50,787 bases of DNA from Ilumatobacteraceae bacterium (GCA_025463425.1 JAOBWQ010000068.1:1-50787), one strand, 5' to 3'; shown: positions 34,271 to 50,601, numbered from the stretch's first letter. Made by a program: numbers and translations. The notes: generated by a model not told the origin, from the sequence alone.

Positions 34271-34921
34271 GTGATCCGCGTCTTCCTCGTCGATGACCAC
34301 GAGGTCGTTCGTCGAGGGGTGCGCGAGCTGTTGGAGAGCGCCGGTGACATGGAGATCGTCGGCGAGGCAGGAACCGCCGCTGAGGCGCTGCAGCGAGTGC
34401 CGGCAGTGGCGCCGGACGTCGCCGTGCTGGACGTTCGGCTGCCTGATGGCAGTGGCGTCGAACTCTGCCGCGACCTTCGGTCGGAGATGCCGACGTTGAA
34501 GTGCCTGATGCTGACGTCGTTCAATGATGACGAGGCCCTGTTCGATGCAATCATGGCCGGCGCCGCCGGATACGTGCTCAAAGAGATCCGCGGATCCGAC
34601 CTGATCGAAAGCGTGCGTCGCGTCGCAGCCGGCCAGTCGTTGCTCGACCCGCAGGTCACTGCTCGGGTGATCGATCGCCTCCGGAACCCGCCTCGTGACG
34701 CACGGTCGGCGACCTTGACCGCTCAAGAGTCGACCATCCTCGCCCATCTCGCCGACGGGCTGACGAACCGCCAGATCGCGGCCGCGATGTTCCTCGCCGA
34801 GAAGACCGTCAAGAACTACGTCTCGAACATGTTGTCCAAGCTCGGGATGAGCCACCGAACGGAGGCAGCGGTGTACGCAGCTCGCCTCGCTGATCGTCGG
34901 CTGGCGAAGCCGAACGAGTAG
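34271..34921 (+). CDS. NarL/LuxR-family response regulator (DevR/DosR-like)
   Basis: The receiver domain has VFLVDDH, the phospho-Asp in LDVRLPDG, and MLTSF. The C-terminal LuxR HTH reads [44 protein letters not shown]. Confidence 0.92.
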
Positions 34922-42482: not shown

Positions 42483-43096
42483 ACGAGCTCCCGCCTCGCG
42501 ACGGCGATGCCGGCCATCCAGCCGGGCGCCCGTCCGTTCGGCGGTGGCTCGATCCCGTCGACCTCGATCCCGCTGCGAACCAACAACCACGCGATCACGG
42601 AGTTCGAGTTCCACATCTCGCCGGCCCGGAGCTCGTCGCGTCCCCACACGGGTGTCGGCACCATCGGGGCGAGGTCGACGAGGTGCTGCGCAACCGAGGA
42701 CGTGACCGGAAATCGCGTGGAGCTGACCGACGAGGCCCAGTCAGGGATCAGTCCGTCGAGCCAGCAACGGTTCTCGTAACGGAACAAGCGGAAACGCCTC
42801 AGCCGGCGCGAGCCGACCGCGCCGGTTCCGACGACCCCGCGTCGTTGGCCGTGGTCGTCGGGAGTCGGCGCCATCTCGATCGTGTACACGTCGTCGCCGA
42901 CGGCGACCCGGAGTGCTGAGTGGTAGATGTCGGCCGTGCGGCGGCGGTGCAAGGCTGCGGAGACGGCCTCGAACATCCGGCCGTTCGCCCGGACGACTGA
43001 GCTGCCGGCACCCAGGGGGATCCATGAGAGCTCGACGGACGCACTGCCGACAAGGGCGACGCCAGTGGTCGATCGGGCCACGACGCTGCTGTGCAT
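42467..43096 (-). CDS. Conserved-looking hypothetical protein (209 aa), first gene of the arcC-xfp-mgtA operon
   Basis: The composition is coding-like and not low complexity (SWIPLGAG, YHSALRV, YTIEMAP, GEMWNSNSVIAWLL). It overlaps the arcC start by 16 nt. I recognise no domain. Confidence 0.6.
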   Translation of the reverse strand: MHSSVVARSTTGVALVGSASVELSWIPLGAGSSVVRANGRMFEAVSAALHRRRTADIYHSALRVAVGDDVYTIEMAPTPDDHGQRRGVVGTGAVGSRRLRRFRLFRYENRCWLDGLIPDWASSVSSTRFPVTSSVAQHLVDLAPMVPTPVWGRDELRAGEMWNSNSVIAWLLVRSGIEVDGIEPPPNGRAPGWMAGIAVARRELVCDEL

Positions 43097-43132
43097 GGAC
43101 TCATTCGACCACTGGCGGGGCCGCCGGGAATA

Positions 43133-43146
43133 GGGCCATTGGTCAG
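43133..43146. promoter_or_regulatory. Weak DosR-type box-like element GGGCCATTGGTCAG upstream of the long minus-strand operon
   Basis: The 5' arm GGGCC and the 4-nt spacer resemble the USP box, but the 3' arm is imperfect. It lies 37 nt upstream of the start codon at 43096, a similar offset to the USP box relative to 32924. Confidence 0.2.
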
Positions 43147-43254
43147 CACTTCAGCGTTGGTGCGCTTCCGATCGATGCGATCGATCTCGTCTGGCGCTCC
43201 GAACGGAGTGTGCGGAGCTCGACGTTCGGGTACACAGCGTCAAAGCGAGGTCTC

Positions 43255-44280
43255 ATGAGCGCAAATCACGTCTTCACCCACCACAACGCCGGCATCATCT
43301 CCGTCACGGCGACGGAGGCCCCCGACGTCATCACGTCGGCTTGGATCGACGAACAGCTCGCCGACACGTACGCGCGCACGGGCGTCCGCCCGGGGCTCTT
43401 GCGGGATCTGGCCGGCATCGTCGAGCGGCGTTGGTGGCCGGAGGGGATGACCTTCGCCGAACAGGCGGCCACGGCGGGGTCAGCCGCACTCGAGGCATCC
43501 GGCGTCGACCCCGGGCGCGTCGGGTTGATGATCTCGACATCGGTGAGCCGCCACCATCTGGAGCCGTCGATGGCATGTGCGATCCACCATGCCCTCCGCC
43601 TCCCCAGCTCGTGCGCCAACTTCGACATCGCCAACGCGTGCCTCGCCTTCGTCAACGCGATCCACGTCGCCAGCACGGCGATCGATGCCGGCGACATCGA
43701 GTACGCACTGATCGTCGACGGTGAGGGCAGCAGGCACACGCAGGAGGTCACGCTCGAGCGGTTGCGCCGCCCTGACGTGACGGCTGAACAGGTCTCAGCA
43801 GAGATCGCAACGCTCACGCTCGGCTCAGGCGCCGCGGCGATGGTCTTGGGCAAGCTCGATGCGCATCCCGATGCGCACCGGATCGTTGGCGGCGTGAGCC
43901 GAGCGGCGACAGAGCACCATGACCTGTGCGTCGGCGATCTCGAACGAATGCGAACCGACACCGGCCGACTGCTCGATGCAGGACTCGACCTCGCCGAGGC
44001 CTGCTGGAAGGCCTCTGCCGAACGATGGGACTGGTCACTCGGGATGGATCGCTACGTGGTTCACCAGATCAGTCAGGTGCACACGAGGTTGATGTGCGAG
44101 CGGCTCGGCATCGATCCCACACGAGTCCCTCTCACGTTTCCGTACTACGGCAACGTCGGCCCCGCCTCGATACCGATCACGCTCGCGTCGATCGCCGATG
44201 AGCTCACCGCCGGCGACCGTGTGCTCTGCATGGGGATCGGCTCTGGCCTGAACGCCAGCTTCACCGAGGTGGTGTGGTGA
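43255..44280 (+). CDS. 3-oxoacyl-ACP synthase III (KAS III/FabH-like) family protein
   Basis: It is the internal ATG of ORF 42913..44280. The Cys-His-Asn triad context is present (ANACLAF, VVHQIS, YGNVGPASIP), followed by GIGSGLN at the C-terminus. Confidence 0.85.
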   Translation: MSANHVFTHHNAGIISVTATEAPDVITSAWIDEQLADTYARTGVRPGLLRDLAGIVERRWWPEGMTFAEQAATAGSAALEASGVDPGRVGLMISTSVSRHHLEPSMACAIHHALRLPSSCANFDIANACLAFVNAIHVASTAIDAGDIEYALIVDGEGSRHTQEVTLERLRRPDVTAEQVSAEIATLTLGSGAAAMVLGKLDAHPDAHRIVGGVSRAATEHHDLCVGDLERMRTDTGRLLDAGLDLAEACWKASAERWDWSLGMDRYVVHQISQVHTRLMCERLGIDPTRVPLTFPYYGNVGPASIPITLASIADELTAGDRVLCMGIGSGLNASFTEVVW

Positions 44281-44381: not shown

Positions 44382-45176
44382 TCACGAGACCTTGGTGAGC
44401 ACGACGTTGGTGACTACTTCGATGATCGCGTGGAGGATGTCGGGTTGGAACGGATCGACGCCGGTCGCCGGGGTCGCGGTCGCGGCGCCGGACTGCGCGC
44501 TGTAGTCGAGGTCGACCTCGACGGACATCGGCAGCGAGGCACGCAGGACGCTGAAGTTGCTGGCGACGGCCTCGCTGATTCCGACGTTCCGTGTGTAGTA
44601 GTCGTCGAAGAAGGCGCCCTCGCCGAAGCCCGTCGCGGACGCGAACGAGCTCTGGTGGTCGGAAGTGGCGTCGCCGTTGACGGAGCCGCTGGTGTAGGCC
44701 TTGTGGGTCGCGAAGAGGTCACGGACGGCCTGTGGGGTCGGGATGCCGTCGACGCTCCCATCTTCGATCGTGATGATGAACGTCATGTCTTGCGCCTCTG
44801 CCTCGGTCAGGGCGAGGTCGGGGTAGCGGTTGGACGTGAACAGGAAGTCGCACACCAAGGGATCGCCGAACTCGTCGGCGAGCCGGATGGGCGCGACGGA
44901 GCCGGCGGTGGTCGCGGGAGCGATCGTCTGCACCGCCGCCAGCAGGTCAGCGGCTGAGAAGCTGTCGCACGTGTACTGCCGGGCGTCGTGACCGTCGACG
45001 GCGCCTGCGTCGGCCGCATTCGACGAGACCCCGCCGGCGTCTGGGGCGGCACCACCCGCGGCGGGTGGCGAGCTCGCCCCTGACTTCGTGGCCGTGCTGG
45101 AGCACGCCGATCCGAAGACAGCGAGCAGGAGGAGCAGGGTGGCCCCAGTGACACGTGAACCGTTCATTGTGCGCAT
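44382..45176 (-). CDS. Secreted lipoprotein of unknown function
   Basis: The ATG at comp(45174..45176) is preceded by AGGAG. The signal peptide has a lipobox (LLLLLAVFGSAC) followed by an Ala/Gly/Pro-rich linker. The start overlaps the SnoaL gene stop by 13 nt. Confidence 0.75.
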   Translation of the reverse strand: MRTMNGSRVTGATLLLLLAVFGSACSSTATKSGASSPPAAGGAAPDAGGVSSNAADAGAVDGHDARQYTCDSFSAADLLAAVQTIAPATTAGSVAPIRLADEFGDPLVCDFLFTSNRYPDLALTEAEAQDMTFIITIEDGSVDGIPTPQAVRDLFATHKAYTSGSVNGDATSDHQSSFASATGFGEGAFFDDYYTRNVGISEAVASNFSVLRASLPMSVEVDLDYSAQSGAATATPATGVDPFQPDILHAIIEVVTNVVLTKVS

Positions 45177-45580
45177 GTTGTTGACTCCTGAGAGAGGGCG
45201 AAGAGCATCGCGGGTGTGTCGATGAAGAACTCGGCCTGATGCACGAGGCCGTCTCGAATCGTCCACAGATGGCATTCGGAGATGTCGAACGAGGCACCGT
45301 TGGCTCGCACGGTTCCGCTGGTCCTGCCGTACTGGACGACGCGATCTCCGGCTTGGAAGAGTTGTTCGGCCTCGATCGTGGACTCGGTCGCTGTGATCAG
45401 CTTCGTGACGAAGTCGACGACGCCCGAAGGACCGACGAACGTCCCGCCCCACGGCAGAGCTGGGTCCTGGATGACGACGACATCCGGGGAGCACCACACG
45501 AGGACGCCCTTCAGGTCGTTCCGTGAGAAGCCGTCGTAGATGGTCTGCACGATGTCGACGGGTGTGCTGCTGCGGTTCAT
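45164..45580 (-). CDS. SnoaL-like/NTF2-fold (ketosteroid-isomerase-like) protein
   Basis: The protein is 138 aa. IVQTIYDGFSRNDLKGVL ... WTIRDGLVHQAEFFIDT is typical of SnoaL_2/NTF2-like domains. Confidence 0.7.
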   Translation of the reverse strand: MNRSSTPVDIVQTIYDGFSRNDLKGVLVWCSPDVVVIQDPALPWGGTFVGPSGVVDFVTKLITATESTIEAEQLFQAGDRVVQYGRTSGTVRANGASFDISECHLWTIRDGLVHQAEFFIDTPAMLFALSQESTTCAQ

Positions 45581-45598
45581 GACGCGATGTTGGGCGCT

Positions 45599-45630
45599 CG
45601 TGCCGGTTGGCGAATCAGGGAAACCATGTA
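45599..45630 (-). promoter_or_regulatory. Left copy of a bipartite cis element (minus strand TACATGGTTTCCCTGATTCG-N3-ACCGGCACG)
   Basis: The 20 nt at 45611-45630 are the exact reverse complement of 48020-48039, and the 9 nt at 45599-45607 match 48044-48052. It lies in the 93-bp divergent region between the SnoaL operon and the LAL regulator gene. Confidence 0.7.
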
Positions 45631-45673
45631 GGTCTCGACAACTGCCGAGCGCGCGGGTTGATAGACCTGGGAG

Positions 45674-48001
45674 GTGAGCAGCGCTGGTGATGGGGCAGGG
45701 TCGGGCCCTGGGGCGCTGATCGTCCCACTGAGTCCGTTCATCGGCCGCGACCGTGAGCTCGCCGAGCTCGCAGCGCTCTTCGACCGAACCCGGATGCTCA
45801 CCCTGACCGGATCGGGTGGCGTGGGCAAGACGAGGTTGGCGGTCGAGTTGGCGGATCGCTGCGCGCGCCCCGATGAGATCGTCACCATGGTCGGTCTGGA
45901 TGTCGTCAGCGATCCCTCGCTGGTGGCAGCAACGATCGGCGCCGCGATCGGCGCGCGCATGGCTTCCGCATCATCCGTCGACGACCAGGTCGTCGCCCTT
46001 CTCGCGGGTGCGCCTCGGTTTCTCGTGCTGGACAACTGCGAACACGTCGCATCTGTCGTGGCGCGGTTCGTCGAGCGAGCAGTGGCGGGTGCCCCGAGCT
46101 TGCGTGTCCTGGCAACGAGCAGGGCGGTCTTGCACGTGGCCGGTGAGCAGGTGTGGCCAGTTCCGCCACTCGGCGTCGCCCCGTCCGGCAGCAGCGGAGA
46201 CGAGGTCGCTGCGTCCGACGCAGGTCGCCTGTTCATCGAACGGGCCCGACGGAGCCAGCCTGGCTTCGTGGTGGACACGACGGCTGCGGCGGCCATCGTC
46301 GGGATCTGCGACGTGCTCGATGGGTTGCCACTCGCGCTGGAGTTGGCCGCTGCGTGGGCGTCGACACTGTCGATGACCGAGCTCGTCGGCCGGCTCTCCG
46401 AGAGCATGGCGCTGCTCAACCCGGAGGCTCCCGAACCAGGCAGGCACCGCACGCTGCGGTCGGTCGCAACGTGGAGTGACAGCCTCCTCGATCCGCTCGA
46501 CCGGGTCGTGCTTGCCGCGATCTCCGTGTTCGCCGGCCCGTTCACCATCAGCGATGCCGAACAGGTTGTCTCCGGAGTCGAGCCGGCCGAGGTTGTCCAC
46601 GCATTGCGCCGTCTCGTCGATTCGTCGTGGCTCTTCGCCCTGCACGGCGACGAGACCGGCTACGGAATGTTGAACACGCTGAGGGACTTCGGTCGCGAAC
46701 TGTTGCGGGCAGGTGAGCACGAGTCCGCCGTGCGGAGTCGCCACGCGCACACGTTCGCGGCCAAGGCAGAGGCATCAGAGTCCGGACTGTCCGGGCCTGA
46801 GCAGGCGATCTGGCAGGCCCGGATGGAACGCGCGGCCGGCGACTTCACGCTCGCGCTCCAATGGTCGACTGGGCGCGTGGATGACGACGATGTCGGCGTC
46901 CGACTCGTCGGAGCGCTCTGGAGGTGGTGGTACACATCGGGTCGCATTGCCGAGGGTCGCGCCTGGGCGACTCCCGTGCTCACCCACTCGCGGGCCGCGT
47001 CACCCGTCCTCCGCGGTCGAGCGTTCTACACGAGCGCGATCCTCGCAGTCGAGAACGGCGACTACGGCACCGCCTGGGCCCATGCTCAATCGGCTCGACG
47101 AGCCTTCGACGTGATCGGCGATCACGACGGCGCCTCGAGAGCCAGCACGATCCTCGGCAACGTCGCCAAGTACCGAGGTGACCTCAATGCGGCGATGACT
47201 CATCTCAGCGACGCCGTCACCGGGCAACGCGCCTTCGGTGATGATCGCGCGACGGCAGTGGCCCTGCAGAACCTCGCTGCGTTGGTCATCGACCAGGGTG
47301 ACCTCGCCCACGGTCGGCTGTTGATGGAAGACAGCCTGACGTTGAAGCGCAGAGCCGGCGATCGACGGTCACTCGGATACGGGTTGATCAACCTGAGCGA
47401 CCTGCTCGTGCGCGAGCACAACGCCGATGCCGCCCGAACGGCACTGGGCGAGGCCGCAGGAATCGCAGCGGAGCTCGACGACGATCGTTTGGCAGCGTTC
47501 GTTGCCCACAACCTCGGCGACATCGCTGCCACCGATGACGAGCCCGCGTTCGCCGTTGCTCACTACCGCAACGCGATTGCCGGCTTCCGTCGCGTCGGCG
47601 ACGTCCGGGATGTCGCACTCGCGCTGTGCAGCTTGGGCCGGACGCTCGTGCACATGGGCGAGGTGGAGCAAGGGCTGACCGCGCTGCGAGACAGCGAGCA
47701 GCTGGCCGCCGAGATCGGCGACGAGCTCCGTCTCTCGGAGGCCCGTGGAGCATTGGCCTCATCGCAGGCGACACCAGCATCGAGCAGCCTCCCGGGTGGC
47801 CTCACCGCTCGCCAGGCCGAGATCCTGGCTCTTCTCGCGAGCGGGATGTCGAACCGCGACATCGCTGCGCACCTCGTCTTGTCGGCCGGGACAGTGGAAC
47901 GCCACCTCGCCAACGTGTACCAGAAGCTCGGTGTGTCGAACAGGGTGGGCGCCACTCGCTACGCCTTGGCACACGGGCTCGGCACGTCGGCAGCACCTTG
48001 A
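45674..48001 (+). CDS. Large ATP-binding LuxR-family (LAL/MalT-like) transcriptional regulator: NTPase-TPR-HTH
   Basis: It has a P-loop (GSGGVGKTRLA), a long TPR-like helical middle, and a C-terminal LuxR HTH (LTARQAEILALLASGMSNRDIAAHLVLSAGTVERHLANVYQKLGV). Confidence 0.9.
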   Translation: MSSAGDGAGSGPGALIVPLSPFIGRDRELAELAALFDRTRMLTLTGSGGVGKTRLAVELADRCARPDEIVTMVGLDVVSDPSLVAATIGAAIGARMASASSVDDQVVALLAGAPRFLVLDNCEHVASVVARFVERAVAGAPSLRVLATSRAVLHVAGEQVWPVPPLGVAPSGSSGDEVAASDAGRLFIERARRSQPGFVVDTTAAAAIVGICDVLDGLPLALELAAAWASTLSMTELVGRLSESMALLNPEAPEPGRHRTLRSVATWSDSLLDPLDRVVLAAISVFAGPFTISDAEQVVSGVEPAEVVHALRRLVDSSWLFALHGDETGYGMLNTLRDFGRELLRAGEHESAVRSRHAHTFAAKAEASESGLSGPEQAIWQARMERAAGDFTLALQWSTGRVDDDDVGVRLVGALWRWWYTSGRIAEGRAWATPVLTHSRAASPVLRGRAFYTSAILAVENGDYGTAWAHAQSARRAFDVIGDHDGASRASTILGNVAKYRGDLNAAMTHLSDAVTGQRAFGDDRATAVALQNLAALVIDQGDLAHGRLLMEDSLTLKRRAGDRRSLGYGLINLSDLLVREHNADAARTALGEAAGIAAELDDDRLAAFVAHNLGDIAATDDEPAFAVAHYRNAIAGFRRVGDVRDVALALCSLGRTLVHMGEVEQGLTALRDSEQLAAEIGDELRLSEARGALASSQATPASSSLPGGLTARQAEILALLASGMSNRDIAAHLVLSAGTVERHLANVYQKLGVSNRVGATRYALAHGLGTSAAP

Positions 48002-48019
48002 GCTCCACGTGAGGTGACA

Positions 48020-48052
48020 TACATGGTTTCCCTGATTCGGGGTACCGGCACG
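48020..48052 (+). promoter_or_regulatory. Right copy of the bipartite cis element (TACATGGTTTCCCTGATTCG-N4-ACCGGCACG)
   Basis: It is an exact 20-nt plus 9-nt match to the left copy in inverted orientation. It lies 58 nt upstream of the lipoprotein ATG at 48111. Confidence 0.7.
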
Positions 48053-48110
48053 GCGTCTTACCGTCAGCGTCGAGCAGTCCCATCCGGGGCCTGCGCGTCG
48101 AGGAGACCGA

Positions 48111-49466
48111 ATGTCCATCACCGCTGTCACACGAGGTTTCACGGTCGCCGCCATCCTCTGCGCGGGCTGCGCCAGCACCTCCACCAAATCGGCTCCCGAC
48201 GGCGCGCCGTCAGCGTCGACGCCGTCCACGCCCGCACCGTCCACGCCGCCCGCACCGGCCACGCCGCCCGGATCGGACGAGGCGCCGGACGGAGGAGGGG
48301 CAGTGCAGGTGCGGTTCGTGAACCTCTACGCCCCATCGGATCATCCGGCCGGTGTCGGGCTCAACGGCTTCTTCCAGGGTGACACCTACCTGAACAGCAC
48401 CGACGGCAGCGGGACACCCAACTTCTCCGACATCGCCTACGGCCAGACCAGCGGGTACAAGAGTGCTGACCCGTCCAAGGTCGGCCAGCTCGAACTGTTC
48501 GTCAGCGGTCAACCGCAAGCGATCTCGTCGGTCAACATCGACGGAAGTGCAACGGGCAGGTACACGTTCGTCGTCTACGACATCGGTCAACCCGGCTTCG
48601 CCGCCGTCGAGGGATTCAACGAGACCCCGTCCGCCAGCGACGTCGCCCAGAAGTTCCCAGGTGCGCTGTCCGCCGCGCCAGACGGCAAGGCACTCATCGT
48701 CGCGGTCGGTGGCCCACTCCAGACCATCACCGACCAGAAGGGCTTCACCCTCGGTCAACCCGGGAAGGGTTGCTTCGCGCTCCAGGTCCCGGACCCACCG
48801 AACTCGGGGCAGAGCCTGATCCCGTCCGGCGGTTCGCTCAACTTCGTCGCCGACCCGGGCCCGCTCCAGATCGCCTACTTCGGCAGTGACGACACAGACT
48901 GCAGCCAGAGCCCGGTCATCGCTCCGGTCGCCGTCACGCTGGCCGCCGGTGACCGCACCTACGTCGTCGCCTACGGAACGGCAGGGTCTCCAGAACTGCT
49001 CAGCATCGACGTTCCGATCGCGGCGCTCGCCGGCGATCAACCGCTGATCCCGAGTCCCACAGCTGTGACCGAGACGCCGTCGTCGGACGTCGATCCGTGC
49101 TCGGTCCTCACCGATGATCAGGCAGCGACCGCTCTCGGCGCACCAGTCGACAACAGCACTGGCGACACAACCTCGGGGGCCTGCACCTACACCGCCGGGG
49201 CGGCGACCCTGTTCGTCTCCATCCAGACCGGTGTCGACACCGCAGCGTTCGACGCGATCAAGTCAGGAGCATCGAACGGCCAACCCGCTGAAGGCATCGG
49301 CGACGACGCGTTCTTCACCACTGACCCGGACAGCATCGTCGCGATCAAGGGCACCACGATGCTCGCGATCGGCCTCGACCGCCACGCCGACAGCGGGCCC
49401 GACGACCCCGCCATCGACGACCCGATCATCGCCGCTCTGGCGACCGCGGCGCTGCAGCAGCTGTAG
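48111..49466 (+). CDS. Secreted lipoprotein of unknown function (451 aa)
   Basis: GAGGAG lies 6 nt upstream of the ATG. The signal peptide has a lipobox (VAAILCAGC) followed by a Pro/Ser/Thr/Ala linker. The C-terminal module shares a C..L...D and GIGDDAFF pattern with the other lipoprotein. Confidence 0.8.
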   Translation: MSITAVTRGFTVAAILCAGCASTSTKSAPDGAPSASTPSTPAPSTPPAPATPPGSDEAPDGGGAVQVRFVNLYAPSDHPAGVGLNGFFQGDTYLNSTDGSGTPNFSDIAYGQTSGYKSADPSKVGQLELFVSGQPQAISSVNIDGSATGRYTFVVYDIGQPGFAAVEGFNETPSASDVAQKFPGALSAAPDGKALIVAVGGPLQTITDQKGFTLGQPGKGCFALQVPDPPNSGQSLIPSGGSLNFVADPGPLQIAYFGSDDTDCSQSPVIAPVAVTLAAGDRTYVVAYGTAGSPELLSIDVPIAALAGDQPLIPSPTAVTETPSSDVDPCSVLTDDQAATALGAPVDNSTGDTTSGACTYTAGAATLFVSIQTGVDTAAFDAIKSGASNGQPAEGIGDDAFFTTDPDSIVAIKGTTMLAIGLDRHADSGPDDPAIDDPIIAALATAALQQL

Positions 49467-49500
49467 TCAAGTGTGCCGGACCCCATGCCGATGAGTTGAC

Positions 49501-50601
49501 GTGGATTCCAGCGAGCTCCGTGCCGGTTACGTGGCCGAGCAACGCGCTGCTGCTCGTTCAACAGCGTTGCTCGCCGGAGTCGTCGCGATCGCCGTCTTCC
49601 CGCTCTGGACGGTGTTCGACGAGATCGTCCTGGTGCACGGTGAGGAGTTCATCGGGCTGCGCATCGGCTTCGAGGTCGCCATCGTCGTCGCGTGGTTCGC
49701 GCTCCGCTCGGCGCGGATCGGGCGTCGCTGGCCCGAGCCGGCGGCGTTCTTGCTGGTCGCGCTTCCGGAGATTGCGATCAGCTGGATGATTCCCCGCACC
49801 GGCGACCACATCGAGCCATACCTGCTCGGCTTGTCGATCACCATCTATGCGAGTGCTTTCGTGATCGTGTGGCACTGGCACCTCACCGCTCTCCTGGTCG
49901 TGTTGACCGGAGCGCTGGTTGCACTGTTCTGCGTGCAGGCCGCCGATCCGATCTCCGCGCCGCAGATCGCGACGATCGTGTTCTACCTCGGTACGGCAGG
50001 AGCCATCTCCATCGTCGGCCAGATCTATCGTCACCGCACCGGCTGGCTCAAGTTCGTCACCGAGGCCGAGCTCGCTGACGAACGGCAACGCAACGCCGTC
50101 CTCGTGGAAGAGCTCAACCAGCTCAGTCGACAGGATCCGCTCACCGGCATCGGCAATCGCCGGGCATGGGAAGAGCGCGTCGTCGCCGAACTGCTGCGCA
50201 GCGAACGGCACGGACGAGCCCTCTCGGTGATCCTGTGCGACCTCGACGACTTCAAGGCGGTCAACGACACGCTCGGGCACGCCGCAGGCGATCGGGTTCT
50301 GAGGGCAACTGCGGCCCTGCTGCTCGATCGAGTGCGGGCGACCGATTTCGTGGTCAGGTTCGGCGGTGACGAGTTCTGCGTGCTCTGCCCCGACACCCCG
50401 CTCGCCCTCGCGCAGGGCCTCGCCGACGACATCGTTCGACGTGCTCGAAGCTTCGCCTGGCCCGACGGCCTTCGGCTGAGTGTCTCTGTCGGAGTTGCGC
50501 AAGCTCAACCGACCGAGACCGATCCGAGCCTCGTCGTGCAACGCGCCGACGCAGCGATGTATCGCGCCAAGCGCGCTCGGAGCACCGTCGCAACGAGCTG
50601 A
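49501..50601 (+). CDS. Membrane-bound diguanylate cyclase (about 5 TM helices plus GGDEF)
   Basis: The hydrophobic N-terminal half is followed by RFGGDEF with RATD (an RxxD I-site) 5 aa upstream, DPLTGIGNRR, and LCDLDDFKAVND. Confidence 0.9.
   Translation: MDSSELRAGYVAEQRAAARSTALLAGVVAIAVFPLWTVFDEIVLVHGEEFIGLRIGFEVAIVVAWFALRSARIGRRWPEPAAFLLVALPEIAISWMIPRTGDHIEPYLLGLSITIYASAFVIVWHWHLTALLVVLTGALVALFCVQAADPISAPQIATIVFYLGTAGAISIVGQIYRHRTGWLKFVTEAELADERQRNAVLVEELNQLSRQDPLTGIGNRRAWEERVVAELLRSERHGRALSVILCDLDDFKAVNDTLGHAAGDRVLRATAALLLDRVRATDFVVRFGGDEFCVLCPDTPLALAQGLADDIVRRARSFAWPDGLRLSVSVGVAQAQPTETDPSLVVQRADAAMYRAKRARSTVATS

What the first reader, a model, noticed from the sequence alone, without database searches (positions are those of the whole stretch)
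45599..48052. Exact 20-nt (plus 9-nt) inverted copies of one cis element bracket the LAL/LuxR regulator and face two lipoprotein operons
CGAATCAGGGAAACCATGTA (45611-45630) is the exact reverse complement of TACATGGTTTCCCTGATTCG (48020-48039). A second block is shared 3-4 nt further on (ACCGGCACG, comp 45599-45607 and 48044-48052). Read toward the flanking genes, both copies have the same orientation. The left copy faces the SnoaL-lipoprotein operon (start comp 45580) and the right copy faces the 451-aa lipoprotein gene (start 48111). In both, a TANNNT-like hexamer follows the 20-mer at the same distance (CAACAT on the left, TACCGT on the right, 18-19 nt away). That places the 20-mer at about -31 to -50, where LuxR/MalT-type activators usually bind. 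The left copy is also only 44 nt upstream of the regulator's own GTG. A 20-nt exact match within 50 kb is far beyond chance. I infer a self-contained regulon in which the LAL regulator controls two secreted lipoprotein modules and possibly itself. I do not recognise the motif.
Basis: partly seen in the sequence, partly recalled or inferred. Interest (0 to 1): 0.72.

Follow-up and report, generated by a model that had tools for sequence, protein, structure and literature searches.

The report
Conserved promoter-operator of a LuxR-type regulator
The two inverted 20-base copies are real and are best read as matching promoter-operator sites through which the regulator gene lying between them controls its two neighbouring operons; this regulator-site pair is undescribed but is an ordinary kind of bacterial gene switch.

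Summary
TACATGGTTTCCCTGATTCG lies at 48020-48039 (+) and 45611-45630 (-). No other copy exists in the 50.8-kb window, even weakly.

The same 20-mer (consensus TACAT-R-R-TTTC-C/G-NN-GAT-K-C-R) sits beside homologous regulators down to about 38% identity. It also sits beside a second LAL lineage that shares only the LuxR helix-turn-helix.

The site always points at a downstream gene. It is followed by a -10-like hexamer, a clean TAnnnT in most, 18-19 nt downstream (18-20 in the AIM24 and SnoaL_2 promoters). The targets are SnoaL-like proteins, DUF3558-type or other lipoproteins, a secreted repeat protein, or AIM24.

Seventy-nine more distant relatives (29-39% identity) lack the site. Nearly all site-bearing regulators carry a T(V/I)ERH recognition helix. 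The three lacking the Glu have G instead of C at site position 12.

The 9-nt second block lies in the spacer and is not conserved elsewhere. The transposon-end, repeat-element and RNA readings are rejected.

The most likely mechanism is class II-type activation from about -50 to -31. Binding and the sign of regulation are inferred, not shown. This is a new member of a known kind, of moderate interest.

The parts
48020..48039 (+). Right copy of the 20-bp operator/promoter element TACATGGTTTCCCTGATTCG. It starts 18 nt after the regulator stop codon and faces the 451-aa lipoprotein gene.
   Evidence: Maximum weight-matrix score of 37.7 bits. The same placement (regulator stop, then site, then target) is seen in L001, L005, L126, L210, L038, L039, L072, L104, L109, L082, L102 and L118.
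45611..45630 (-). Left copy of the same 20-bp element, read on the - strand. It faces the SnoaL-lipoprotein operon and lies in the divergent intergenic region, 43 nt before the regulator GTG.
   Evidence: Orthologous SnoaL promoters in L001, L002/L003 and L004 carry the site at the same distance from a -10 hexamer and the start codon.
48059..48064 (+). -10-like hexamer TACCGT, 19 nt downstream of the right site. The predicted transcription start is near 48071, giving a 5' UTR of about 40 nt with GAGGAG before the ATG at 48111.
   Evidence: Sequence. TACCKT occupies the same position in L001, L002, L004 and L005. The transcription start is inferred, not mapped.
45587..45592 (-). -10-like hexamer CAACAT, 18 nt downstream of the left site and 6 nt upstream of the SnoaL ATG at 45580. 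This predicts a leaderless mRNA.
   Evidence: Sequence. The identical arrangement CAACAT-N6-ATG is found in L001 and L002.
48044..48052 (+). ACCGGCACG block inside the right promoter spacer. It is real, but it is not part of the conserved element.
   Evidence: The spacer columns sit at background information content. A 7-nt core, CGGCACG, recurs only in L005.
45599..45607 (-). ACCGGCACG block inside the left promoter spacer.
45674..48001 (+). Regulator gene of 775 aa. It encodes a P-loop STAND-type ATPase (Walker A GSGGVGKT, Walker B-like LVLDNCEH), TPR repeats and a C-terminal LuxR/GerE HTH with recognition helix GTVERHLANVYQKLGV. It is the proposed reader of the 20-mer.
   Evidence: Pfam hits: GerE 64.5 bits, TPR_12, AAA_16 at 32.1 bits against a cut-off of 32.6, TPR_MalT below its cut-off. 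No specific NCBIfam family. Homologues. HTH-to-site covariation.
45164..45580 (-). Target gene 1: a SnoaL-like (NTF2-fold) protein of 138 aa.
   Evidence: Pfam SnoaL_2, E = 2.3e-13. SnoaL or SnoaL_2 genes are also the target in L001, L002, L004, L082, L102 and L118.
44382..45176 (-). Target gene 2, second gene of the SnoaL operon: a putative lipoprotein of 264 aa (MRTMNGSRVTGATLLLLLAVFGSAC...). Its start overlaps the SnoaL stop by 13 nt.
   Evidence: No Pfam hit. Its homologue in L206 (282 aa) is driven directly by a site.
48111..49466 (+). Target gene 3: a putative lipoprotein of 451 aa with sub-threshold DUF4397 and DUF3558 matches.
   Evidence: Orthologues in L001, L002 and L004 each have their own site.
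49501..50601 (+). GGDEF diguanylate cyclase gene, 34 nt downstream of the lipoprotein gene. It may be co-transcribed with it, but operon membership is not shown.
   Evidence: Pfam GGDEF, E = 1.6e-38. No terminator-like site was found between 45400 and 48300. The 49466-49501 gap was not tested separately.
45662..45668 (+). Candidate -10 (TAGACCT) for the regulator's own, possibly leaderless, transcript, 6 nt before the GTG at 45674. The left 20-mer would then lie at about -44 to -63 in the opposite orientation.
   Evidence: Sequence inspection only. Speculative, and not conserved in position across loci.

Best explanation
Each 20-mer is the activator-binding part of a promoter. It occupies roughly -50 to -31, replacing a recognisable -35, and sits a fixed 18-19 nt upstream of a TAnnnT-like -10 hexamer. 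I propose that the C-terminal LuxR-type helix-turn-helix of the STAND ATPase-TPR regulator encoded at 45674-48001 binds it. The binding form is probably an ATP- or ligand-induced oligomer, as for MalT-like proteins. Binding would recruit or position RNA polymerase in the class II manner. This would switch on the leaderless SnoaL-lipoprotein operon on the left and the 451-aa lipoprotein gene on the right, possibly with the GGDEF gene behind it. The two copies form an inverted repeat only because the two target operons point away from the regulator gene.

Shown: the sequence, its conservation, its orientation and spacing, its linkage to the regulator gene, and the covariation between HTH and site. 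Inferred: direct binding, activation rather than repression, the transcription start points and the inducing signal.
For: 1. Both window sites are exact, unique in the window, and score the matrix maximum.

2. Protein-side test. Loci fetched through regulator homologues carry the site. These are P0001 (82% identity), P0002 (78%), P0006 (66%), P0008 (63%), P0009 (62%), P0017 (58%), P0020 (56%) and P0039 (43%), plus metagenome locus L126 (42%). Their sites have 0-3 changes and score 30 bits or more.

3. DNA-side test. The genome-collection scan was dominated by chance hits. Even so, each of the nine strong high-GC actinomycete sites except L032 lies directly after a LuxR-HTH regulator gene on the same strand (L038, L039, L072, L082, L102, L104, L109, L118). 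L032 is the orthologue of a third site that lies 4 kb from the regulator in L001.

4. Specificity. Seventy-nine loci encoding relatives at 29-39% identity (558 kb) have no site; the best score there is 14.9 bits.

5. Promoter geometry. In 21 aligned sites the 20-mer has sharp boundaries with flanks at background. It always points at the downstream gene and is followed by a -10-like hexamer: a clean TAnnnT/ANNNT after 18-19 nt in most. In the AIM24 and SnoaL_2 promoters it is TAGACA(T) or an ANNNT hexamer at 19-20 nt. SnoaL promoters keep CAACAT-N6-ATG. Spacing this constant suggests a stereospecific contact with RNA polymerase. A simple repressor operator would not need it.

6. Site-positive regulators share T(V/I)ERH(L/V)A(N/T). 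About 40 site-negative outgroup HTHs have other residues at these positions. Regulators in L082, L102 and L118 belong to a different LAL lineage in which only the HTH aligns (about 50% identity, HTVERHVAN). They still have the site, and it still drives a SnoaL_2 gene. The window protein lacks the N-terminal XRE HTH found in many homologues but keeps the site.

7. Residue-to-base covariation. The only regulators that have lost the Glu are L207 (TVASH), L211 (TVARH) and L126 (TVQRH). They are also the only ones with G instead of C at site position 12. The L211 case was predicted before it was fetched.

8. There is no RNA-family match and no stable fold.
Against: There is no experimental binding, transcription-start or expression data. 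Two homologues with a TVERH helix (L208 at 45% and L209 at 42% identity) have no site within 10 kb on either side. One with TVGRH (L212) has none.

The site is asymmetric, whereas most LuxR-type dimers bind inverted repeats. The -10 hexamers already fit the actinobacterial TAnnnT pattern. These promoters might therefore fire without an activator, which would make the protein a repressor.

The covariation rests on only two independent lineages.
Confidence: 0.72

Rival explanations
1. The elements and the binding protein are the same, but the regulator is a repressor, or a dual regulator. By occupying -50 to -31 it would block RNA polymerase from promoters that are intrinsically active through their TAnnnT -10.
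For: The -10 hexamers fit the actinobacterial TAnnnT pattern without needing a -35 (the point about actinobacterial promoters is general knowledge). At least one Streptomyces LAL protein, SCO6993, is reported as a repressor (PMC9628970). In L082, L102 and L210 the site abuts or overlaps the regulator stop codon, so a bound protein could also block read-through.
Against: The 18-19-nt spacing to the -10 is essentially invariant across all sites and target genes. That spacing is expected for stereospecific activation, whereas repression does not need it. The site never overlaps the -10 or the predicted start point. STAND-LuxR regulators such as MalT are typically activators (general knowledge).
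Confidence: 0.18
2. The 20-mer is a promoter element read by a different protein encoded elsewhere, such as an alternative sigma factor or another transcription factor. On this view the LuxR regulator is merely a frequent neighbour or a co-regulated gene.
For: No binding data exist. L208 and L209 have the TVERH helix without a nearby site. L032 has a site without a regulator on its 6.6-kb contig.
Against: Linkage to a LuxR-HTH gene holds across three gene arrangements and two unrelated LAL backbones, while the target genes change. The HTH recognition helix covaries with site presence and with base 12. A 20-bp, nearly invariant element is much longer than a sigma -35 element. The sequence contains no GGAAC-type ECF motif in the transcribed orientation.
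Confidence: 0.06
3. The two copies are the terminal inverted repeats of a mobile element (IS- or MITE-like) carrying the regulator gene, or they are copies of a dispersed REP-like repeat.
For: The layout is an inverted pair of about 24-37 nt bracketing a 2.4-kb segment.
Against: No transposase lies between the arms; the only gene there is the regulator. There is no flanking direct duplication (sequence). There are only 2 copies in 50.8 kb. In L002 both sites lie on the same side of the regulator. L005, L126, L038 and others have a single site, and L001 has three. In every case each site keeps a fixed distance to a -10 hexamer and a gene start. The outer part of the 'arm' (ACCGGCACG) is not conserved.
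Confidence: 0.02
4. The 20-mer acts as RNA. Possibilities are a 5'-UTR or 3'-UTR element, a riboswitch, or complementary ends that pair the regulator mRNA's 5' and 3' regions.
For: On the + strand the left and right copies would be complementary within a read-through regulator transcript (sequence).
Against: There is no Rfam match at E <= 1. Folds are no better than shuffled controls, with z of 0.2 and -1.5. The SnoaL ATG lies only 30 nt beyond the site, with a -10 hexamer in between. Many loci have only one copy, or both copies on one side. The flanks carry no conserved pairing partner.
Confidence: 0.02

Closest known systems
MalT and MalT boxes (E. coli maltose regulon), the prototype of large ATP-binding LuxR-family (LAL) regulators
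   Same: The architecture matches: a P-loop STAND ATPase, helical or TPR-like sensor repeats and a C-terminal LuxR/GerE HTH. The recognition sequence is asymmetric. The promoter-proximal site overlaps or replaces the -35, and activation depends on correct phasing with the -10 (MalT properties are from general knowledge; the MalT box is quoted in PMC9628970).
   Different: Neither strand of the 20-mer contains a GGA[TG]GA / GGGGAKGAGG box (sequence). There is one 20-bp site per promoter instead of arrays of 6-10-bp boxes. The protein matches the MalT NCBIfam model only over the HTH (47 bits against a cut-off of 537), and TPR_MalT falls below its Pfam cut-off. The protein is 775 aa rather than about 900.
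LuxR/TraR-type lux boxes (class II activation from about -42.5)
   Same: The site is 20 bp long and centred near -40/-41, overlapping the -35 region of a promoter that has only a -10. The binding domain is a LuxR-type HTH.
   Different: Lux boxes are inverted repeats bound by symmetric dimers. This 20-mer has no conserved dyad: the pairing CATGG/CCCTG in the window falls on the two variable positions. The regulator has no autoinducer-binding domain.
Streptomyces LAL regulators (PikD, NysRI, SCO6993 and others)
   Same: They share the taxon (Actinomycetes) and the overall domain order. They are often encoded next to their target genes, and some autoregulate (PMC9628970).
   Different: The characterised sites are short, degenerate palindromes with no derivable consensus (PMC9628970). 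Here the site is nearly invariant at 30 bits or more. The targets are SnoaL, lipoprotein and AIM24 genes rather than antibiotic clusters. Identity to plasmid-borne Rhodococcus or Streptomyces relatives is at most 32%.
AfsR/SARP-type STAND activators
   Same: They have an NB-ARC-like ATPase plus TPR (a weak NCBIfam AfsR match over the TPR region). Their binding sites overlap the -35 at fixed spacing from the -10 of actinomycete promoters (general knowledge).
   Different: Their DNA-binding domain is an N-terminal SARP (OmpR-like) domain that reads direct heptamer repeats. It is not a C-terminal LuxR HTH.

Membership tests
[quoted passage not shown] | N-terminal P-loop NTPase domain with Walker A and Walker B motifs | tested here: met
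   Walker A GSGGVGKT and Walker B-like FLVLDNCEH are present in the translation (invariant G46, G49, G51, K52, T53, D120, E123). Pfam AAA_16 scores 32.1 bits, just under its 32.6 cut-off, and AAA_22 gives a weak match.
[quoted passage not shown] | C-terminal LuxR/GerE-type helix-turn-helix | tested here: met
   Pfam GerE, E = 6.7e-18, 64.5 bits, residues 710-764. PDB matches cover the HTH domain only: LiaR, VraR, NarL, GerE and DosR.
[quoted passage not shown] | MalT-type sensor/TPR-like superhelical domain and membership of the MalT equivalog | tested here: inconclusive
   TPR_12 passes its cut-off. TPR_MalT scores 29 bits against a cut-off of 45. NCBIfam MalT scores 47 bits against a cut-off of 537 and matches the HTH only. 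No structure was predicted.
MalT box operator | Presence of the GGA[TG]GA / GGGGA(T/G)GAGG box | tested here: not met
   The box is absent from both strands of TACATGGTTTCCCTGATTCG. The box sequence is as quoted in PMC9628970.
lux box / palindromic LuxR-family operator | 20-bp site with conserved dyad symmetry | tested here: not met
   The length is 20 bp, but the aligned sites show no conserved inverted half-sites. Positions 13-14, which the window's partial palindrome needs, are the variable ones.
Class II activator-dependent promoter | Activator site overlapping the -35 region at fixed phasing with a -10 hexamer | tested here: met
   All 21 aligned sites are followed by a -10-like hexamer starting 18-20 nt after the site (a clean TAnnnT at 18-19 nt in most) and have no TTGACA-like -35. 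The positions are relative to inferred start points.
Class II activator-dependent promoter | Transcription depends on the activator, and the mapped start point lies downstream of the -10 | not testable with these tools
   This needs 5'-RACE or dRNA-seq together with regulator deletion or overexpression.
IS/MITE terminal inverted repeats or REP-like dispersed repeat | Transposase or multiple dispersed copies, target-site duplication, and positions independent of gene starts | tested here: not met
   No transposase is present. There are 2 copies in 50.8 kb and no flanking direct repeat. Copy number and layout vary between loci, while the distance to the -10 and the gene start stays fixed.
Known RNA families (Rfam 15) | Covariance-model match | tested here: not met
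   No match at E <= 1 in 45000-48600 on either strand.

The most novel reading that the evidence does not exclude
The 20-mer and the T(V/I)ERH LuxR helix may form a portable, highly specific regulator-promoter cassette. Two otherwise unrelated LAL backbones have acquired it, and it is repeatedly placed so that the regulator's stop codon abuts its target promoter. In this reading the LuxR HTH, a structural cousin of sigma region 4, acts as a surrogate -35 reader on an asymmetric site. It would use a simple recognition code in which the helix Glu reads C at position 12, and Ala or Gln reads G. That would give an orthogonal, re-programmable switch from uncultured soil actinomycetes. It would also point to an unknown signal controlling a secreted lipoprotein/SnoaL module, possibly with a diguanylate cyclase.
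Probability: 0.25. Interest if true: 0.6.

Novelty: new member of a known kind. Interest (0 to 1): 0.42.

Why it matters
Operators of LAL/STAND-LuxR regulators are poorly defined. Published actinomycete examples give short, degenerate palindromes with no consensus (PMC9628970). Here comparative genomics alone yields several concrete things:
- a sharply bounded, nearly invariant 20-bp site;
- its promoter geometry;
- a candidate recognition helix;
- a single residue-to-base covariation that can be tested by swapping one amino acid and one base pair.

It also assigns a regulatory context to several protein families of unknown function: SnoaL-like proteins, DUF3558-type lipoproteins, a 264-282-aa lipoprotein family and AIM24. 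These occur in largely uncultured soil Actinomycetes. The very high specificity (sites of 30 bits or more, or nothing) makes the pair attractive as an orthogonal expression switch. It remains a conventional transcription-factor and operator system, not a new kind of mechanism.

Tried and rejected
1. Genome-collection scan. The pattern TACATRRTTTCCNNGATKC was too loose for 596 Gb; I estimate about 550 chance matches. Many hits were coding sequence (...TACATGATTTCCGTGATGCG...) in Verrucomicrobia and Planctomycetes. The actinomycete subset was still informative.

2. Metagenome scan with the regulator alignment. I used these as a negative control rather than as new positives.

3. Source contig. 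An exact-protein look-up of the window regulator found nothing.

4. TIR, MITE and REP reading. Rejected; see the rival explanations.

5. RNA reading. Rfam gave nothing and folding was not significant.

6. Small ORF or start-stop reading. Neither the ATG inside the motif nor the one on its complement is conserved: ATA replaces ATG in L005, L126, L082, L102 and L118, and the following codon varies among TAG, TAT, TAC and TAA.

7. ECF-sigma -35 reading of GGAAAC on the complement. Nothing is conserved upstream of TACAT.

8. E. coli-type promoter and terminator scan. It found nothing, as expected for a high-GC actinomycete.

9. Internal 9-bp direct repeat within the 20-mer (TACATGGTT / TCCNNGATT, 6 of 9 matches). 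By my estimate this is not significant.

10. Anti-phage defence models. PADLOC gave only generic TPR and HTH matches.

11. Plasmid collection. There is no close homologue; the best is 32% identity.

12. Literature. A search for the motif found only unrelated eukaryotic primers.

13. The GAGCAGTC 8-mer downstream of some -10 boxes. It is common in these genomes (7 per 50 kb), so it is only weak evidence for a second element.
Full report
**Observation**

The window has 66.7% G+C. CGAATCAGGGAAACCATGTA lies at 45611-45630 and its exact reverse complement TACATGGTTTCCCTGATTCG lies at 48020-48039.
- The repeat finder extends the pair to 24 nt at 96% complementarity (pair I2).
- ACCGGCACG follows 3 nt after the left copy (complement of 45599-45607) and 4 nt after the right copy (48044-48052).
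- With up to three mismatches the 20-mer occurs exactly twice in the window and never in 100 dinucleotide-preserving shuffles.
- A weight matrix built later from 16 non-redundant sites gives both copies the maximum possible 37.7 bits. No other window position reaches 8 bits.

**Genes around the sites**
- Between the copies lies one ORF, 45674-48001 (+), of 775 aa. It has a P-loop ATPase (Walker A GSGGVGKT; AAA_16 just under its cut-off), TPR repeats and a C-terminal GerE/LuxR HTH (64.5 bits).
- No NCBIfam model names this protein. MalT and AfsR models match only parts of it, far below their cut-offs.
- To the left, on the - strand, is a SnoaL-like gene (45164-45580). A 264-aa putative lipoprotein gene (44382-45176) follows it, and its start overlaps the SnoaL stop.
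- To the right are a 451-aa putative lipoprotein gene (48111-49466; weak DUF4397 and DUF3558 matches) and, 34 nt later, a GGDEF gene (49501-50601).
- Each 20-mer, read 5'-TACAT...TTCG-3', points at its flanking operon.
- On the left, 18 nt after the site comes CAACAT, then 6 nt, then the SnoaL ATG. This predicts a leaderless mRNA.
- On the right, 19 nt after the site comes TACCGT, then about 46 nt including GAGGAG, then the ATG.

**Protein-side test**

A homologue search with the regulator gave relatives from 82% identity downward. I fetched the contigs of ten of them.

| Homologue | Identity | Locus | Sites found |
|---|---|---|---|
| P0001 | 82% | L001 | 3: before SnoaL, after the regulator stop before the lipoprotein orthologue, and 4 kb downstream before a DUF3558 gene |
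| P0002 | 78% | L002/L003 | 2, both on the same side of the regulator (SnoaL and the lipoprotein orthologue) |
| P0006 | 66% | L004 | 2 |
| P0008 | 63% | L005 | 1, after the stop, before a lipoprotein |
| P0009 | 62% | L206 | 1, divergent, before the homologue of the window's 264-aa lipoprotein |
| P0017 | 58% | L207 | 1, before a secreted Cys-repeat protein |
| P0020 | 56% | L211 | 1, before the orthologue of that Cys-repeat protein |
| P0039 | 43% | L210 | 1, overlapping the regulator stop codon |

Eight of the ten have the 20-mer with 0-3 changes. L208 (45%), L209 (42%) and L212 (44%) have none. Of the 80 loci returned by the metagenome scan, only the closest (L126, 42% identity) has the site, again just after the regulator stop. 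The 79 loci at 29-39% identity (558 kb) have none; the best matrix score there is 14.9 bits.

**DNA-side test**

Nine strong high-GC actinomycete sites were nevertheless recovered. Eight of them (L038, L039, L072, L104, L109, L082, L102, L118) lie 0-120 nt after the stop codon of a LuxR-HTH regulator gene on the same strand. The ninth, L032, is the orthologue of the L001 third site.
- In L038, L039, L072, L104 and L109 the regulator is 38-47% identical to the window protein and the downstream gene encodes an AIM24-family protein.
- In L082, L102 and L118 only the HTH aligns, at about 50% identity. The rest of the L118 protein is a different LAL backbone. The downstream gene is again SnoaL_2.

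Because sites sampled at random from genomes are almost always next to a regulator, the regulons appear to be small and local.

**Anatomy of the element**

I aligned 21 sites.
- The boundaries are sharp. Information content jumps from about 0.2 bits in the flanks to 1-2.6 bits across exactly 20 positions, then falls back.
- The consensus is TACAT-R-R-TTTC-(C/G)-N-N-GAT-K-C-R.
- A weaker signal reappears at +19 to +24 (T-A-n-n-n-T). In most sites a clean TAnnnT/ANNNT hexamer starts after 18 or 19 nt. In the AIM24 and SnoaL_2 promoters it is TAGACA(T) or an ANNNT hexamer at 19-20 nt.
- Scores are bimodal, either 30 bits or more or nothing.
- The element is A+T-rich in genomes of 66-74% G+C.
- It has no conserved dyad, because the window's partial palindrome uses the two variable positions.
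- It contains no MalT box.

**The 9-nt block**

ACCGGCACG lies in the spacer between the site and the -10. The spacer is not conserved between orthologous promoters.

Within-genome pairs sometimes share spacer strings: 9 nt in the window and 7 nt in L001. Background pairs mostly share 3-4 nt, and only 4 of 225 reach 7 nt or more. The core CGGCACG recurs at the same place in L005. This may reflect occasional gene conversion between the two promoters or weak constraint. It is not part of the conserved operator.

**Which protein reads the site**
- All site-positive regulators with an intact pattern carry T(V/I)ERH(L/V)A(N/T) in the recognition helix.
- About 40 site-negative outgroup HTHs carry TVNTH, TVNNH, TVHAH, TVDWH and similar.
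- The second LAL lineage shares little but this helix and still has the site.
- The window protein lacks the N-terminal XRE HTH present in many homologues, so that domain is not needed for the association.
- The three regulators that have lost the Glu are L207 (TVASH), L211 (TVARH, same clade) and L126 (TVQRH, independent). They are the only ones whose site has G rather than C at position 12. I predicted the L211 case from its protein sequence before fetching the DNA.
- By alignment with NarL (TVKVHVK), the Glu and Arg correspond to the base-contacting Lys188 and Val189. That numbering is from memory and was not tested here.

There are exceptions. L208 and L209 have TVERH but no site within 10 kb, and L212 (TVGRH) has no canonical site.

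**Mechanism**

If transcription starts about 7 nt after the -10, the 20-mer spans about -50 to -31, centred near -40/-41. This overlaps the place of a -35 that these promoters lack.

The invariant phasing with the -10 across unrelated target genes argues for a stereospecific contact with RNA polymerase, that is class II-type activation as for MalT or LuxR. A plain repressor operator would have no need of fixed spacing. Repression remains possible (rival 1), because TAnnnT promoters in actinomycetes can be active without a -35 (general knowledge).

Autoregulation is open. A candidate -10 (TAGACCT, 45662-45668) lies 6 nt before the regulator GTG and would put the left site at -44 to -63 in reverse orientation. 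However, the distance from the site to the regulator start ranges from about 20 to 450 nt in other loci.

**Rejected alternatives**
- Mobile-element ends: there is no transposase and no target duplication. Copy number and layout vary, while promoter geometry stays fixed.
- RNA element: there is no Rfam match and folds are no better than shuffles. Single-copy loci also argue against it.
- Small ORF: the ATG is not conserved.
- ECF-type promoter on the complement: the upstream flank is not conserved.

**Comparison with known systems**

The regulator works like a MalT/LAL-type STAND activator, and the site is placed like a lux box. It is not a MalT box, because the sequence is absent. It is not a lux box, because there is no dyad. 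Characterised Streptomyces LAL sites are short, degenerate palindromes with no consensus (PMC9628970).
- No paper in the searchable library contains the motif.
- No PDB entry resembles the protein beyond the HTH.
- No plasmid-borne homologue exceeds 32% identity.
- All positive loci come from soil metagenomes or MAGs labelled Streptosporangiaceae or 'Actinomycetes'.
- A possible cultured example is Nocardiopsis sediminis (L048). Its regulator helix is TVETH and the site lies 25 nt after the stop, but there is no clear downstream gene.

**Verdict**

It is a previously undescribed regulator-operator pair of a familiar kind. Interest is moderate. Its value lies in an unusually well-defined LAL operator, a testable residue-to-base recognition rule, and a regulatory handle on several families of unknown function.

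Noticed in passing
window 48071-48100; L001 about 2728-2752; L208 13420-13450; L039 5797-5810: A second short conserved string follows the -10 in some promoters: CGAGCAGTCC-N3-4-C(C)GGGG-N1-3-GCGC. It occurs in the window, in L001, and in L208, which lacks the 20-mer and has a GGDEF gene downstream. TAGACATGAGCAGTCATCAT occurs before AIM24 genes. The 8-mer GAGCAGTC is common in these genomes (7 per 50 kb) and the predicted 5'-UTR hairpin is not significant (z = -1.0), so this is only a weak lead.
   Followed up: partly
L207 9531-9550, L211 136-155, L126 6419-6438, against all other sites: There is a residue-to-base covariation. Regulators whose recognition helix lacks the Glu of T(V/I)ERH (TVASH, TVARH, TVQRH) are the only ones whose site has G instead of C at position 12. 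This represents two independent lineages. The L211 case was predicted before its DNA was fetched.
   Followed up: yes
window 45674 (regulator start), compared with L004 6001-8610, L211, L212, L210: Many homologues (P0006, P0007, P0010, P0020, P0026, P0039 and others) carry an extra N-terminal XRE-type HTH (PF01381/PF13560) of about 90 aa. The window protein and its closest relatives lack it. The window ORF cannot be extended upstream, and only 93 nt separate it from the SnoaL gene.
   Followed up: partly
window 45674-48001: The protein collection holds a 534-aa version of this gene product (P0004, 100% identity over 69% of the ORF). A gene caller therefore chose an internal start. Homologues align from residues 1-14 onward, so the 775-aa ORF is the better model.
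   Followed up: partly
L082 2335-2341, L102 1228-1234, L210 12490-12496: In several loci the regulator's stop codon lies inside or directly against the 20-mer (for example ...ACA TAG within TACATAG). The target promoter therefore begins where the regulator gene ends, forming a very compact regulator-operator-target cassette.
   Followed up: partly
window 45593-45610 and 48040-48058; L001 spacers; L005 8488-8505: Promoter spacers are more alike within a genome than between orthologues. They share 9 nt in the window and 7 nt (AGGCCCG) in L001. The window core CGGCACG recurs at the same spacer position in L005. This may reflect gene conversion between sister promoters or weak constraint.
   Followed up: partly
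L048 4574-4593 (-), Nocardiopsis sediminis TBRC 1826, NZ_JBHSBH010000004.1: This is a cultured strain. It has a 959-aa LAL regulator (helix TVETH) whose stop is followed after 25 nt by TACATGGTTTCCGGGATGCA and, 18 nt later, GACGAT. No convincing downstream gene lies within about 1.9 kb. It could be an experimentally tractable relative, or a decayed site.
   Followed up: partly
window 48229-48266: A tandem 18-nt near-repeat (CGCCCGCACCG[T/G]CCACGCCG) encodes a Pro/Thr/Ser/Ala-rich linker just after the lipoprotein signal sequence of the 451-aa protein (families D4 and D17).
   Followed up: no
window 34715-34879 (+): The window contains a second, unrelated LuxR-type HTH (…[27 protein letters not shown], a NarL/DosR-like helix). 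It does not carry the TVERH signature, and no 20-mer lies near it.
   Followed up: no
window 42913-44280 (+): A FabH/KAS III-like ORF (ACP_syn_III and ACP_syn_III_C) converges on the SnoaL-lipoprotein operon. It has no site upstream and no evident link to the regulon.
   Followed up: no
L102 (JADGRD010000719.1): This 2.9-kb contig is binned in a MAG labelled 'Proteobacteria bacterium'. It carries the actinomycete-type LuxR-site-SnoaL_2 cassette at 67% G+C, so it is probably a mis-binned contig.
   Followed up: no
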